Assembly: GCA_964587535.1 (NCBI GenBank)
Contig: CAZPMA010000003.1
Coordinates: 1 to 59,487 of the forward strand
DNA from: an uncultured Bacteroidales bacterium
Lineage (GTDB): Bacteria; Bacteroidota; Bacteroidia; Bacteroidales; UBA12077
Direction: 5' to 3'
DNA length: 59,487 nt
In this document: positions 44,551 through 59,487 of the stretch, piece after piece
How the letters are laid out: each line of letters opens with the position of its first letter
Numbering within the stretch: position 1 is the first letter of the stretch
Position numbers and translations under genes: made by a program
Notes under the pieces: generated by a model
Told to the model about the DNA's origin: nothing
Databases searched by the model: none
The model's input: only the letters and a program-made list of their open reading frames with translations

Positions 44551-45441
44551 ATGAAAATACAAATTGAGAATCTGGATAAGATCTACAAAAACGGTAAAAA
44601 AGCGCTTTCAGATGTAAACCTTGAAATTGAAAATGGAATGTTTGGTTTACTCGGTCCGAATGGAGCTGGTAAATCAAGTTTAATGCGTATACTGGTTACT
44701 TTAATGAAACCTAGTAAAGGAAAAGTTAATGTGAATGGCTTTGATCTTTTAAAAGATCGTTCAGAAATAAGAAAAATGCTTGGATATCTACCTCAAGATT
44801 TTAGATTTTTTACCAAGTTAAAAACATGGGAGTTTTTAAGTTACGCTGCTGGCTTATCAGGCATAACAAGTAAAAAAGAAAGATCTGAGAAAGTCGATGA
44901 ATGGCTCGACAAAGTTGGCTTATTTGATGTAAGAGATCGAAGTGCCAACAAGCTTTCAGGTGGGATGAAACGTCGATTAGGAATTGCACAGGCATTGATT
45001 GGCGACCCTCAGATTATTGTAGTTGATGAACCAACAACGGGGCTTGATCCGGAAGAACGTATTCGATTCAGAAATATATTATCAGAAATTAGCCAAAGAG
45101 ATGTGATAATTATACTTTCTACACATATTGTTGGAGATATATCCAGTGTTTGTCAGGACCTTGCATTATTAAACAAAGGAAACGTTGAATTTAAAGGTTC
45201 GCCTGAAGAATTAATCAGTAAAACCAAAGGACACGTTTGGCAAGTAGCCACATCTGGTTTTGAGTATGAAATGCTTAAAGAAAAATATGCTATAATATCT
45301 ACTATTCCGGCTGAAGAAGGTTGGGAAGTTCAACTGGTTGGCGATGAACTTAATGTAAAAAATGCCATTGAAATTGAACCTAATCTTGAACATGCATATG
45401 TCTATTTTATGGAATACTTAACCAATAAAAACAGATTCTAA
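44551..45441 (+). CDS. ABC-2 type ATP-binding protein
   Basis: GPNGAGKS, LSGGMKRR, VVDEPT, STH. Confidence 0.95.
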   Translation: MKIQIENLDKIYKNGKKALSDVNLEIENGMFGLLGPNGAGKSSLMRILVTLMKPSKGKVNVNGFDLLKDRSEIRKMLGYLPQDFRFFTKLKTWEFLSYAAGLSGITSKKERSEKVDEWLDKVGLFDVRDRSANKLSGGMKRRLGIAQALIGDPQIIVVDEPTTGLDPEERIRFRNILSEISQRDVIIILSTHIVGDISSVCQDLALLNKGNVEFKGSPEELISKTKGHVWQVATSGFEYEMLKEKYAIISTIPAEEGWEVQLVGDELNVKNAIEIEPNLEHAYVYFMEYLTNKNRF

Positions 45442-58200: not shown

Positions 58201-59487
58201 AATTGGTGTTCCTTTTGCAATTACAATTATCGGCGGATTAACATTAAGTACAATTTTAACTTTAGTATTTATTCCCACCTTAAATTCAGGTCTGCAATCA
58301 TCGTTAAACTGGATTTATCAACAAAAAACCTACATTAAAATAGTTCAGATCGCAATTTGGGCTATTGGTAGTTACTTTATATTTACTGAGATTGACAGAA
58401 GAGTATGGCAGATTATTGTTTTCATATTATTGATTATTGCTGTTCCGGCAAGCATATATTTTATCCAGAACAGTTTGCGAAAAGCCAGTGAGAAACTAAT
58501 CGACGAGAAAGATGCCTTGAATATAAAAATCAGAAACCTTGTAAAGATTTATGATTGGGATAATCGCTTTATGCGTGAATGGAAATCAGGAATAAATATT
58601 CGTAAACGTTTAGGAATTGAACACGAATATAAATCTGCAAAAGATTTTGACCAGTTAATATGGCAAATACCCCTAATTGGCTTCTTTCTATTCTTTATAT
58701 ATTTTCATTTAGAAAGTGGATTATGGTATTTTATATTACCTATATTCTTATATATCATAACATTATATGTTTTAGATCCAATAAAAAAATATGTTTCAAA
58801 CTTAAAATATGCAGGCAAACATAAACTTGTAAGATTTCTATTGAGCGTAATTCAAAAATCATTTTTCTGGGGTTTCCCTGCACTTACTTTATTCTTATTT
58901 TATAAAAAGTATACACTTCTTGGACTAATAATTCCAATGGGTGTAATATGGTATTTCCTTATTTTAATAAAAGTTACATCGGATAATTTATACAAGAAAC
59001 AAGTTGATATTAACAGATTAAAGGGTAAATTTAAAAGCATCCGAAAAGGCTTTTATAAATTAGTTAAGGTTATTCCAATTATTGGTAAAAAGAAAGTTCC
59101 TTTTAAAGCACTTAAAGGTGTTTCGATTAAAATAGAAAATGGGATGTTTGGATTACTTGGACCAAATGGTGCTGGCAAATCAACATTAATGCGTATCATT
59201 TGCGGAATCCTTGAACCTAGCTATGGTCAGATAACAATTAATGGCATTGATGTTCGAGAAAAAAGAGAAGAGCTACAAGGTTTAATTGGTTACCTTCCAC
59301 AGGAATTTGGTATGTACGAAAACATGACTGCCTGGGATTTCTTACATTACATGGGTATACTCAAGAAAATCTATAACCAGGAAGAAAGAACTAAACGAGT
59401 AGAATATGTTCTTAATGCAGTTCATATGTTTGATAGTAAAGATGAAAAAATTGGTTCTTTCTCAGGCGGCATGAAACAACGTATCGG
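55226..59487 (+). CDS. RND permease fused to an ABC ATPase, 3'-truncated by window edge (not in ORF track)
   Basis: MNFIIKRKTLIAMLF..., GMLLDNSVVVLEN, LASVFES, RVRPIL; manually read stop-free from 58202 into GPNGAGKS (59159) and FSGGMKQR in the same frame as the start. Confidence 0.88.
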   Translation, partial: MNFIIKRKTLIAMLFTGLTMLGYISYKQLAVELYPNATLPMLYVSVGTPLEVDPKYMENQAIIPLEGAIGTLENIEEINSTAGQQSGSVAISYEKGTDLKYAYLKLIEKIEETKGSIPEEFQVQAFKFDLEQMNNMFMSIDVRGSGGVDRVRHITDQEIINKIKNIDGIANAEVFGGRERSIEIVLHQDICDSYGITPADVRTALSNNSKSRTFVGKVSNQNQLHFVNVLSEFDDIQDIHNLVVKEQGKIKLKDIAEINYGVKEQESYSRVNGKEAVTISLTKDSQANIIALANNVKSLLKNLNKELSAKDIELVIQSNNAETMENNIDSIIHLALIGGILAIFILWIFLKNFRLVIAIALAIPISVYTAFNFFYAFGITINSLTLLGMALAIGMLLDNSVVVLENIYRLAAKNINPDQAVIQGTKEVWRSIFAATLTTVTVFLPFVFSTDFFISLIGKHIGVSIISTLLVSLVVALLLIPMITHAFLKYRKNDKPIQFETISFHNRLIQIYRVILKTCMRKPGKTILGALIVFFLTLLISLGISFISSEEAEIKEIKLYVSLPSGTTLDDTDIVIAEAEKKLEDLEEKKDVLSQVYEEEAVITITLVDDFKDIRNYSIPKIKNEIMDRIEDLNPAEFSWDPPASGRRFGSDSYADDEFGRMLGIGAQREKVIIKGQDFDKMLNQANDVKYYLGQLTSIENVDIRVPDKRPELMLNLDKQLMSFYDIPVTSVLSELNSFQHEFSSGIKFKQGTDEYDIQIKTLTYEDQKDRNITDLKTLSVRSGQGSQFELQEISKFNFTEGLSTIKRTNQEKQLEVVYQFIDEVQSEKDLLESARFEIDELISNMSLPSGIALEVVHEEDNLGEFGFLLLMAFILIYMILASVFESFSTPIVMMFSIPMAAIGSLVLLILTGTSLMNTNVLTGLLILLGIVVNNGIILIDYSRVLRRRGYSESRALMMAGLARVRPILITAITTIIALIPLALGKAEYVQLIGVPFAITIIGGLTLSTILTLVFIPTLNSGLQSSLNWIYQQKTYIKIVQIAIWAIGSYFIFTEIDRRVWQIIVFILLIIAVPASIYFIQNSLRKASEKLIDEKDALNIKIRNLVKIYDWDNRFMREWKSGINIRKRLGIEHEYKSAKDFDQLIWQIPLIGFFLFFIYFHLESGLWYFILPIFLYIITLYVLDPIKKYVSNLKYAGKHKLVRFLLSVIQKSFFWGFPALTLFLFYKKYTLLGLIIPMGVIWYFLILIKVTSDNLYKKQVDINRLKGKFKSIRKGFYKLVKVIPIIGKKKVPFKALKGVSIKIENGMFGLLGPNGAGKSTLMRIICGILEPSYGQITINGIDVREKREELQGLIGYLPQEFGMYENMTAWDFLHYMGILKKIYNQEERTKRVEYVLNAVHMFDSKDEKIGSFSGGMKQRI

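What the first reader, a model, noticed from the sequence alone, without database searches (positions are those of the whole stretch)
44551..59487. Hybrid ABC-2 / RND / TolC operon with two RND paralogs
Seen: co-oriented ABC ATPase, giant ABC-2 permease, TolC, one adaptor, RND1, GxxExxY and RND2-ATPase. The two ATPase domains share ENGMFGLLGPNGAGKS and IGYLPQxF/LGYLPQxF, which suggests a matched pair. Both RNDs have DN in TM4 and N-D or N-N (VNDSII, VNNGII) where AcrB has D407/D408 and K940. Established: heteromeric RND pairs exist (MdtBC), and the VNN-type TM10 is common in this subfamily. Inference: a single trans-envelope machine, possibly for a polymer, lipid or protein rather than a drug.
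Basis: partly seen in the sequence, partly recalled or inferred. Interest (0 to 1): 0.68.

Follow-up and report, generated by a model that had tools for sequence, protein, structure and literature searches.

The report
RND efflux pump fused to ABC ATPase
This gene block encodes an envelope-spanning export machine in which a proton-driven type of pump (RND) is joined in one protein to an ATP-driven motor (ABC ATPase); the combination is conserved in hundreds of sediment and gut-type bacteria, and I found no description of it in the papers I could search.

Summary
Window 44551-59487 carries, on one strand, an ABC ATPase, a 1118-aa ABC-2 permease, a TolC-like channel, one lipoprotein adaptor, RND1, a GxxExxY gene and RND2. 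RND2 continues without a stop into an ABC ATPase domain and is cut by the window end.

The fusion is real:
- 47 of 49 complete metagenomic copies are single ORFs of 1559-1595 aa.
- Cultured Labilibacter sediminis has one (TLX78312.1).
- The about 280-aa linker occurs only in such fusions. It adds six membrane helices, four of them inserted between the first and second strands of the ATPase fold.

Neighbourhood conservation is near total: small ABC-2 permease downstream 66/66, RND1 35/35, adaptor 34/34, TolC 31/31, giant permease 29/31. Distant relatives keep only adaptor, RND1, RND2-ATPase and the small permease, so that is the core.

The giant permease carries a periplasmic M1-aminopeptidase fold without its zinc motif. 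Both RNDs keep only one of AcrB's three proton-relay residues, family-wide.

The "matched ATPase pair" idea is not supported (bootstrap 4-9%). GxxExxY is a passenger.

Most likely this is one coupled ABC-RND export machine; the substrate is unknown. I found no paper describing it. Interest is high.

The parts
44373..44410 (+). Intrinsic-terminator-like hairpin (16-bp stem followed by a U run). It ends the upstream gene's transcription unit and marks the left boundary of the block.
   Evidence: dG -19.4 kcal/mol, z -8.3, 0 of 200 shuffles fold as well. The spacers inside the block have no comparable hairpin.
44551..45441 (+). ATPase1: a free ABC-2-type ATPase of 296 aa with Walker A, Q-loop, signature, Walker B and H-loop all intact. 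Its stop codon overlaps the next gene's start by 1 nt.
   Evidence: Orthologs directly precede the giant permease in L084, L085, L086, L009, L010 and L016.
45441..48797 (+). Giant ABC-2 permease of 1118 aa. It has about 7 membrane helices, then an approximately 820-aa periplasmic part: an M1-aminopeptidase-like fold lacking HExxH, followed by beta-sandwich domains and a C-terminal Golvesin_C domain.
   Evidence: Pfam. AF2 model with pLDDT 83 and pTM 0.80. Foldseek matches IRAP/ERAP1/APN at E 4e-17 over about 640 columns. HExxH is absent in 61 of 61 homologs.
48831..50348 (+). TolC-like outer-membrane factor, 505 aa.
   Evidence: OEP E 6e-46. Present in 31 of 31 metagenome loci with enough upstream sequence. 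Absent from the cluster in L086, L088 and L089.
50483..51532 (+). Periplasmic adaptor (membrane fusion protein), 349 aa, lipoprotein signal MKKLIPFIIAVVLLSAC.
   Evidence: TIGR01730 RND_mfp 183.5 bits against a cutoff of 94.9. Present in 34 of 34 loci.
51644..54724 (+). RND1: a full-length 12-helix RND permease of 1026 aa with no ATPase domain. TM4 is GMLVDN (52856-52885), TM10 is GIAVND (54410-54439), and TM11 keeps R-x-R-P.
   Evidence: Present directly upstream of RND2 in 35 of 35 loci. 28% identical to RND2.
54796..55173 (+). GxxExxY / PD-(D/E)XK_3 gene of 125 aa, a passenger inserted into the RND1-RND2 spacer. It is not part of the machine.
   Evidence: TIGR04256. Absent in L084, where the spacer is 34 nt, and in L085, L001, L002 and L004-L006. 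Divergent copies sit at the same spot in L138, L140 and L147.
55226..58282 (+). RND2, RND part (residues 1-1019): a full 12-helix ACR_tran domain. TM4 is GMLLDN (56405-56434) and TM10 is GIVVNN (58013-58042).
58328..58468 (+). Two extra membrane helices after TM12 (TM13 and TM14, residues 1035-1081).
   Evidence: Hydropathy. AF2 helices H52-72 and H76-105 of homolog P0001.
58517..58555 (+). Displaced first beta-strand of the ATPase domain with the A-loop tyrosine (LNIKIRNLVKIYD, residues 1098-1110).
   Evidence: Invariant I, K and Y in 86 sequences. It is the only strand in the AF2 model before the ATPase core, E117-126. The motif is conserved in the distant loci L086, L088 and L089.
58565..59101 (+). 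Insertion of about 180 aa between strands 1 and 2 of the ATPase: an amphipathic helix, four membrane helices (TM15-18, residues about 1148-1250) and a short cytoplasmic helix.
   Evidence: The linker is found only in RND-ATPase fusions among 1.84 billion representative proteins.
59102..59487 (+). ATPase core of the fusion. Strand 2 starts at 59102, Walker A is at 59150-59182, the Q-loop at 59285-59308 and the signature motif at 59459-59485. The window end cuts it off; about 150 aa and the downstream small ABC-2 permease gene are missing.
   Evidence: Full-length relatives are 1559-1595 aa and are followed by a 230-245-aa permease.

Best explanation
The stretch is most of a conserved operon-like block for a single envelope-spanning exporter that joins two pump types.

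Shown:
- Two anciently diverged RND permeases (RND1 and RND2), one lipoprotein adaptor and a TolC-like channel are encoded together.
- RND2 is covalently extended by six extra membrane helices and a complete, catalytically intact ABC-2-type ATPase domain.
- The first strand of that ATPase is separated from the rest of the fold by four of those helices.
- A small ABC-2 permease gene follows the fusion. It often overlaps the fusion's stop codon.
- A second ABC-2 transporter usually precedes the block. It consists of ATPase1 plus a 7-helix permease with a large periplasmic, zinc-less M1-aminopeptidase-like domain.

Inferred mechanism:
- RND1 and RND2 form a heterotrimer, most simply 1:2. That would supply exactly the two ATPase domains an ABC motor needs and would explain why an ATPase-free paralog is always present.
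- The tethered ATPase dimer plus the small permease work as an ABC-2 exporter or extractor clamped to the RND membrane domain. It moves substrate out of the cytoplasm or inner leaflet, or gates its entry.
- The RND porter domains, the adaptor and the TolC-like channel then expel the substrate across the outer membrane.
- The upstream ATPase1/giant-permease module is an accessory that uses ATP to bind or present substrate in the periplasm through its pseudo-peptidase domain.

The substrate is unknown. The peptide-binding fold and the peptidase-rich neighbourhood make a peptide or protein-derived substrate a weak guess.
For: - The fusion is real. It is continuous in 19 aligned partial proteins from at least five phylum-level groups. 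Single ORFs of 1567-1589 aa occur in L004, L005 and L006, the last from a cultured strain. 47 of 49 complete metagenomic copies are 1559-1595 aa. One apparent split is a scaffold gap; another, in L001, is a frame change of undetermined origin.
- The linker is specific. It has only 100 hits at E<=1e-3 among 1.84e9 representatives, and every one of the 15 full-length hits (1550-1585 aa) carries it at about residues 1015-1300.
- Neighbourhood: small permease 66/66, fused RND2 49/49, RND1 35/35, adaptor 34/34, OEP 31/31, giant permease 29/31.
- The block keeps its content while its flanks differ.
- Distant relatives with 24-28% linker identity keep adaptor, RND1, RND2-ATPase and the small permease.
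- A second architecture (L021) fuses RND2 to an ATPase through a short linker and places a giant ABC-2 permease between the two RND genes.
- The ATPase motifs are intact. The nearest folds are ABC-2 ATPases: TM_1403, NosF and ABCA.
- AF2 places the upstream strand with the ATPase sheet.
- A terminator lies before the block and none inside it; spacers are short.
Against: - There is no transcript, protein or phenotype data. No RNA runs were found.
- Hand-over between the ABC module and the RND, the 1:2 stoichiometry and the role of the giant permease are all inference.
- The AF2 models are monomers and coordinates could not be inspected. Strand pairing is deduced from the DSSP assignment only.
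- The splice test of the displaced strand against ATPase profiles was inconclusive.
- The small permease is only weakly recognisable as ABC-2: 5 of 21 members hit Pfam.
- ATPase1 and the giant permease are not adjacent in L088, so they are not obligatory.
- The 80 metagenome loci are the closest relatives of the window, so the near-100% figures describe mainly one large clade.
Confidence: 0.55

Rival explanations
1. ATP-powered RND. The fused ATPase dimer, coupled through the six extra helices and the small permease, drives the conformational cycle of the RND membrane domain itself. ATP would replace or supplement the proton-motive force.
For: - Both RND paralogs lack two of the three residues that are essential for proton coupling in AcrB, and this holds across the family. 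TM4 is D-N in 54/54 RND2 and 35/36 RND1. The TM10 lysine is replaced in 70/70 RND2 and 43/43 RND1.
- All solved RND pumps in the alignments shown have DD and K at these positions.
- The ATPase is welded to membrane helices at two points.
Against: - The D407-equivalent Asp and the R971-equivalent Arg are kept.
- Other RND families (SecDF, MmpL, CusA) work with different relay sets (own knowledge).
- A dedicated ABC-2 permease is always present downstream (66/66). It gives the ATPase an ordinary partner.
Confidence: 0.2
2. One heterodimeric ABC transporter. ATPase1 and the fused ATPase form a matched heterodimer, and the giant and small permeases form its two membrane halves.
For: - The two ATPases are 43-45% identical over about 275 aa.
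- They group together in one neighbour-joining tree.
Against: - Bootstrap support for that grouping is 4-9%.
- The shared motifs are found in at least 593 other genomic ATPases.
- Stand-alone ATPases elsewhere are as similar to ATPase1, at 42-53% identity.
- Both ATPases have fully canonical motifs, whereas heterodimers often have one degenerate site.
- Adjacency and codon overlap pair ATPase1 with the giant permease and the fused ATPase with the small one.
- L088 lacks ATPase1 and the giant permease next to the core.
- L021 has one ATPase type and one permease type.
Confidence: 0.12
3. Independent pumps that are only co-regulated. An ordinary RND tripartite pump and two ordinary ABC-2 exporters share an operon, and the fusion merely secures co-expression or co-localisation without mechanical coupling.
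For: - Each part is individually recognisable as a normal member of its superfamily.
- The ATPase1/giant-permease module can be absent.
Against: - A fusion that interleaves an ATPase strand with membrane helices and is kept for 24-75% linker divergence across phyla is hard to explain by co-expression alone.
- RND-ATPase fusion exists in two different architectures.
- RND1 is never missing (35/35).
Confidence: 0.13
4. Artefact. The RND2-ATPase reading frame is an assembly chimera or a sequencing frameshift.
For: - The window ends inside the gene.
- Two relatives show apparently split genes.
Against: - Those splits are a run of N with duplicated ends and a frame change of undetermined origin.
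- 47 of 49 independent complete copies are intact.
- An isolate genome has the intact fusion.
Confidence: 0.01

Closest known systems
MdtABC / MuxABC / SmeJK heteromeric RND pumps (HAE-1 'clade B')
   Same: One adaptor gene is followed by two tandem, anciently duplicated RND permease genes. Those pumps are reported to work as a heterotrimer; the review read cites MdtBC, and B2C stoichiometry is from my own knowledge. MdtB is the best solved-structure match of RND1.
   Different: - RND1 and RND2 are not MdtB/MdtC orthologs: 365 and 411 bits against cutoffs of 1584 and 1774.
- They are only 26-31% identical to each other.
- They lack the D408 and K940 equivalents.
- One of them carries six extra helices and an ABC ATPase.
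- A 2024 survey reported tandem RND genes only in the proteobacterial clade B.
AcrAB-TolC-type tripartite RND efflux pumps
   Same: A full-length ACR_tran permease, an RND-type lipoprotein adaptor and an OEP channel in one gene block.
   Different: The proton relay is reduced to one Asp. There are two paralogs. The pump is fused to an ATPase and accompanied by two ABC-2 modules.
ABC-driven tripartite pumps with adaptors (MacAB-TolC, DevBCA, YbhGFSR)
   Same: An ABC ATPase, an adaptor and a TolC-like channel cooperate across the envelope. YbhFSR is an ABC-2-type example with an adaptor gene (own knowledge; title seen).
   Different: - There is no MacB_PCD/FtsX domain in the block.
- Here the ATPase is attached to an RND permease, not to its own permease.
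NosDFY and other type-V (ABC-2) transporters such as ABCA and TM_1403
   Same: The fused ATPase plus its C-terminal domain superposes best on these. Some sources name the giant permease a NosY-like permease. NosY also works with a large periplasmic partner.
   Different: The periplasmic part here is an M1-peptidase-like domain fused to the permease. The ATPase has a 4-helix membrane insertion that is seen in no solved structure.
M1 zinc aminopeptidases (ERAP1, IRAP, PepN)
   Same: The fold of the periplasmic domain of the giant permease, about 640 aligned columns at probability 1.0.
   Different: 11-12% identity; the HExxH zinc motif is absent in 61 of 61 homologs; it is anchored to an ABC-2 membrane domain.
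Two-step efflux by separate pumps (single-component inner-membrane exporters feeding AcrAB-TolC)
   Same: The proposed logic is the same: one transporter moves substrate out of the cytoplasm or inner leaflet, and an RND pump takes it from the periplasmic side to the outside (own knowledge).
   Different: There the partners are separate, unlinked proteins. Here they would be tethered in one polypeptide.

Membership tests
RND superfamily, HAE-1-like tripartite pump | Full-length 12-helix ACR_tran permease | tested here: met
   RND1 covers PF00873 positions 1-1020 of 1021, E 2.5e-216. RND2 covers positions 3-1016, E 2.6e-161.
RND superfamily, HAE-1-like tripartite pump | Cognate adaptor and outer-membrane factor | tested here: met
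   TIGR01730 above its cutoff and OEP E 6e-46. Co-occurrence 34/34 and 31/31.
RND superfamily, HAE-1-like tripartite pump | AcrB-type proton relay (D407, D408 in TM4; K940 in TM10; R971 in TM11) | tested here: not met
   Only the D407 and R971 equivalents are present. D408 is N, and K940 is N (or S in 4 RND1 copies), in both paralogs and across the family.
RND superfamily, HAE-1-like tripartite pump | NCBIfam subfamily score (RND_permease_2, cutoff 1250) | tested here: not met
   594 bits for RND1 and 468 bits for RND2. They are RND superfamily members but fall below the curated subfamily thresholds.
MdtBC-type heteromeric RND | Two tandem paralogous RND genes sharing one adaptor | tested here: met
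   RND1 always upstream of RND2, 35/35.
MdtBC-type heteromeric RND | Orthology to MdtB/MdtC | tested here: not met
   The equivalog cutoffs are missed by a factor of about four.
MdtBC-type heteromeric RND | Heterotrimer of defined stoichiometry | not testable with these tools
   Needs biochemistry, cryo-EM or multimer prediction.
ABC-2 (type V) ABC transporter | ATPase with Walker A, Q-loop, signature, Walker B and H-loop | tested here: met
   Both ATPases in the window, with the remainder seen in full-length relatives. Best folds are TM_1403, NosF and ABCA.
ABC-2 (type V) ABC transporter | Cognate 6-helix ABC-2 permease | tested here: met
   For ATPase1, the giant permease (weak ABC2_membrane_2). 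For the fused ATPase, a small permease downstream in 66/66 relatives, with Pfam ABC-2 hits in 5/21 members. The small permease is not inside the window.
ABC-2 (type V) ABC transporter | ATPase free, or fused to its own permease | tested here: not met
   It is fused to the C-terminus of an RND permease, with a 4-helix insertion inside the ATPase fold.
MacB-type (type VII) tripartite ABC pump | MacB_PCD and FtsX domains | tested here: not met
   None in 44551-59487. Such genes lie elsewhere in the window.
Gliding-motility GldA ATPase | TIGR03522 equivalog cutoff of 402.6 bits | tested here: not met
   192 bits for ATPase1 and 90 bits for the truncated fused ATPase.
M1 aminopeptidase | Fold | tested here: met
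   Foldseek E 4e-17, probability 1.0.
M1 aminopeptidase | HExxH-E zinc site and Pfam gathering score | tested here: not met
   No HExxH in 61/61 homologs. Peptidase_M1 is not detected in the window protein and scores 25.4 against a cutoff of 27.7 in L086.
GxxExxY (TIGR04256) | Curated score | tested here: met
   147.5 bits against a cutoff of 35.

The most novel reading that the evidence does not exclude
The family is a pump energised in a new way. Either ATP hydrolysis by the fused ABC domain drives the RND transport cycle, or ATP and the proton-motive force are used together in one heterotrimeric RND1(1):RND2(2) complex. This would be a third mode of powering tripartite efflux besides pure RND and pure ABC, with an ATPase domain whose first strand is threaded through a membrane-helix bundle.
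Probability: 0.25. Interest if true: 0.93.

Novelty: new variant of a known kind. Interest (0 to 1): 0.8.

Why it matters
RND and ABC pumps are treated as separate solutions to export across the Gram-negative envelope, one driven by protons and the other by ATP. A conserved protein that welds the two together would matter in three ways.

1. It would show how substrates can be passed from a cytoplasm-facing exporter to a periplasm-facing one. That cooperation has so far been inferred only genetically, for unlinked pumps.
2. It offers a natural test of how a threefold RND assembly and a twofold ABC motor can be matched.
3. It raises the possibility of an RND cycle that does not rely on the classical proton relay.

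The family is common in anoxic sediment and gut-type Bacteroidota, and it is present in cultured Labilibacter sediminis (fusion confirmed) and Labilibaculum filiforme. Marinifilum isolates carry the giant-permease gene. This makes the question experimentally tractable. It would also correct current database names such as 'ATP-binding cassette domain-containing protein' and 'hypothetical protein'.

Tried and rejected
- The genome-collection scan with the whole linker-plus-ATPase alignment picked generic ATPase patterns. Most of its 80 slots went to unrelated ABC ATPases. These loci were reused as outgroups and yielded three more clusters plus the L021 variant.
- The splice test joined the candidate first strand directly to the ATPase core and scored it against NCBIfam profiles. 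It was inconclusive, and my control peptide accidentally contained a second strand-like motif, VDINRL. AF2 and conservation in distant members favour the upstream motif.
- Paralogy of the small permease with the membrane domain of the giant permease: hhalign was not significant, E 0.11.
- Sisterhood of the two ATPases appeared in one tree but was not supported by bootstrap.
- Sigma-70 promoter and GC-rich terminator scans were at chance level.
- No sigma-54 promoter consensus was found.
- Rfam found nothing in the window.
- RNA-seq runs: none for the window. A relative's locus could not be submitted.
- Literature: no paper uses the RND-ABC or ABC-RND fusion terms. Broader term sets and two review or survey papers mention nothing similar. 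Only open-access texts are covered.
- Whether VNN-type TM10 is common among other Bacteroidota RND pumps could not be tested. Only two unrelated RND genes were at hand, and both are canonical.

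
Full report
**1. What is in the window**

Between 44551 and the window end there are seven genes on the + strand:
- An ABC ATPase, 44551-45441, 296 aa.
- An 1118-aa permease, 45441-48797. Its start overlaps the ATPase stop by one base.
- A TolC-like channel, 48831-50348.
- A lipoprotein adaptor, 50483-51532.
- RND1, 51644-54724, 1026 aa.
- A 125-aa GxxExxY gene, 54796-55173.
- RND2, starting at 55226.

Pfam and NCBIfam confirm every assignment. RND2 does not stop after its twelfth helix. 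The same frame runs on through about 280 residues into an ABC_tran domain (residues 1296-1420) and is cut by the window end. A 16-bp hairpin with a U tail at 44373-44410 separates the block from the upstream gene (dG -19.4 kcal/mol, z -8.3). The internal spacers of 1-134 nt hold no comparable hairpin. No RNA data exist for this marine-sediment sequence.

**2. The fusion is genuine**

A search with the linker plus ATPase returned many partial proteins that carry both PF00873 and PF00005. Their source labels include Bacteroidales, Draconibacterium, Melioribacteraceae, Krumholzibacterium, Latescibacterota and Spirochaetales. They align without a break from RND helix 12 through the linker into the ATPase.

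Single ORFs of 1567, 1589 and 1576 aa occur in two Bacteroidales genomes and in the isolate Labilibacter sediminis CG51. The isolate's protein is GenBank TLX78312.1, named only 'ATP-binding cassette domain-containing protein'. Two apparent splits were examined. One is a scaffold gap with duplicated ends. The other is a change of reading frame in the linker of L001, and whether it is a sequencing error or a natural split was not determined.

Against 1.84 billion representative proteins, the linker alone finds just 100 sequences. All 15 full-length ones are 1550-1585 aa and carry the linker at residues about 1015-1300. Among 49 metagenomic copies with both ends in the contig, 47 are 1559-1595 aa.

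**3. Anatomy of the fusion**

After helix 12 come two further membrane helices. A cytoplasmic stretch follows, with the invariant motif I-x-I-R-N-L-V-K-I-Y-D. Then come an amphipathic helix, four more membrane helices, a short helix, and the usual second strand and Walker A.

In an AlphaFold2 model of an 81%-identical homolog (pLDDT 84), the motif is a ten-residue beta-strand and the only strand before the ATPase core. DSSP assigns a strand only to hydrogen-bonded partners, so the model places it in the ATPase sheet. I infer that it is the ATPase's own first strand with the A-loop tyrosine, displaced about 185 residues upstream by a four-helix membrane insertion.

The motif is kept about 190-200 residues before Walker A even in relatives with 24-28% linker identity. 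A second strand-like motif nearer the core is not kept in L089. A direct profile test was inconclusive. The ATPase motifs are all canonical. The closest solved folds are ABC-2-type ATPases (TM_1403, NosF, ABCA), and none has such an insertion.

**4. Neighbourhood**

- In a close relative (L084) the order is identical but lacks the GxxExxY gene.
- In Labilibaculum filiforme (L085) the flanks are unrelated (mevalonate-pathway genes) but the block is the same.
- L001, L002 and L004-L006 show what lies beyond the window end: the rest of the ATPase and a 230-239-aa permease. In L005 its start overlaps the fusion's stop codon.
- A metagenome scan with a linker-only alignment found 208 relatives, of which 80 loci were fetched. 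Wherever enough flank exists, the small permease is present in 66/66, RND2 is fused in 49/49, RND1 is present in 35/35, the adaptor in 34/34, the TolC-like gene in 31/31 and the giant permease in 29/31. The two misses are pushed out of range by insertions.
- Distant relatives refine the picture. L086, a marine lineage with a flagellin gene nearby, has everything except the TolC-like gene. L088 has only adaptor, RND1, RND2-ATPase and small permease, with an unrelated gene directly upstream.
- The invariant core is therefore adaptor + RND1 + RND2-ATPase + small permease. ATPase1 with the giant permease, and the channel, are frequent additions.
- A rare second architecture (L021) has RND1, a 922-aa ABC-2 permease related to the giant one (hhalign probability 94.6%), an RND2-ATPase with a short linker that lacks the four inserted helices, and a TolC-like gene. 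An RND-ATPase fusion therefore exists in two forms.

**5. The other parts**

RND1 and RND2 are 26-31% identical to each other. Their orthologs in L086 are 41% and 32% identical to the window copies, so the duplication is old.

Both RNDs have D-N where AcrB has D407-D408, and N where it has K940. All solved pumps shown in the alignments have the canonical residues. Across the family, RND2 is D-N in 54/54 and N-N in 70/70. RND1 is D-N in 35/36. Its TM10 pair is N-N (21), N-D (13), S-N (4), N-S (3) or N-H (2). The window's N-D is therefore not conserved. The R971 equivalent is kept.

The giant permease model (pLDDT 83, pTM 0.80) has about seven helices and then a large domain. Charged residues on the loop before helix 7 place that domain in the periplasm, which is an inference. 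Foldseek matches it to M1 aminopeptidases over about 640 columns (E 4e-17), but none of 61 homologs has HExxH. It is a zinc-less peptidase fold followed by beta-sandwich domains and Golvesin_C. The small permease is only weakly recognisable as ABC-2. It shows no significant profile similarity to the giant one.

**6. The 'matched pair'**

The two ATPases are 43-45% identical and group together in one neighbour-joining tree. However:
- The shared motifs occur in at least 593 other genomic ATPases.
- Unrelated stand-alone ATPases are 42-53% identical to ATPase1.
- In 100 bootstrap replicates the grouping is recovered only 4-9 times, against 93 for the fused-ATPase clade alone.

Gene adjacency pairs ATPase1 with the giant permease and the fused ATPase with the small one.

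**7. Interpretation**

I rate a functional link between the RND pair and the ABC module as very likely. The evidence is a covalent fusion, its strict co-occurrence with the other core genes, and two independent architectures.

The most economical mechanism is one complex. An RND1/RND2 heterotrimer with the adaptor and channel forms the duct. The tethered ATPase pair with the small permease acts as an ABC-2 exporter or extractor that feeds or gates that duct.

A 1:2 RND1:RND2 ratio would reconcile the threefold RND with the twofold ABC motor. It would also explain why an ATPase-free paralog is never missing. MdtB2C is a precedent for a 2:1 RND heterotrimer (own knowledge; the heterotrimer is cited).

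The reduced proton relay keeps open the more radical reading that ATP drives the RND cycle. The substrate is unknown. The pseudo-peptidase domain and nearby peptidase genes hint only weakly at peptides.

**8. Novelty**

I found no paper using terms for an RND-ABC fusion. Nothing similar appears in broader searches, in a comprehensive 2021 review or in a 2024 phylogenomic survey, which reports tandem RND genes only in a proteobacterial clade. No solved structure combines the two domains. Only open-access text was searched, so a prior note in a database or a subscription journal cannot be excluded.

All parts belong to known superfamilies. The combination, the split ATPase strand and the family-wide reduced relay are new variants. 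Cultured carriers of the block exist, so the hypothesis can be tested directly.

Noticed in passing
window 54796-55173; L138, L140, L147 (about 3.4-3.8 kb upstream of the linker): A GxxExxY / PD-(D/E)XK_3 gene sits in the RND1-RND2 spacer of the window. Only about 40%-identical copies sit in the same spacer in three distant relatives, while most relatives have a spacer of about 30 nt. This is either recurrent insertion at one spot or an old insertion that was mostly lost.
   Followed up: partly
window 50376-50451: The spacer between the TolC-like gene and the adaptor gene contains a heptanucleotide tandem array: AGTAATC x3, then AATCTGA x8.4 (90% matches). In the close relative L084 the same spacer is only 27 nt. 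Copy-number variation was not examined.
   Followed up: partly
L001 9990-10020: In a 3.7-Mb single-contig assembly the fusion is split by a frame change. The second ORF starts 12 residues before the displaced ATPase strand. It is either a sequencing error or a natural split at the domain boundary.
   Followed up: partly
L021 409-12923: A variant cluster: RND1, a 922-aa ABC-2 permease with a large periplasmic domain, an RND2-ATPase with a short linker lacking the four inserted membrane helices, and a TolC-like gene. There is no small permease and no free ATPase. Only three other fragments cover its linker and carry both domains.
   Followed up: partly
window 42834-44354: A 506-aa predicted lipoprotein with an HEMGH motif and a weak Peptidase_M3 match lies directly upstream. 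A 502-aa protein is at the same place in L084, after an S41 peptidase, but not in L085. It is separated from the block by a strong terminator hairpin.
   Followed up: partly
window 18492-20912, 31668-34082, 34242-36620, 39805-42189: Four MacB-type permease genes of about 800 aa (MacB_PCD plus FtsX) are scattered through the window without a recognised adjacent ATPase gene. There are also two sigma-54 response-regulator/histidine-kinase pairs (1114-3823 and 36825-39537).
   Followed up: no
window 4468-5835, 9346-10947, 27367-31134: The window is rich in predicted envelope peptidases: M56-M23, M28 and two M14 carboxypeptidase-like genes. A CHAT-TPR protein lies at 12185-15454.
   Followed up: no
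window 59003-59032: A second motif resembling an ATPase first strand (VDINRLKGKF) lies between the fourth inserted helix and the ATPase core. It is coil in the AF2 model and is not conserved in L089. Its role is unexplained.
   Followed up: partly
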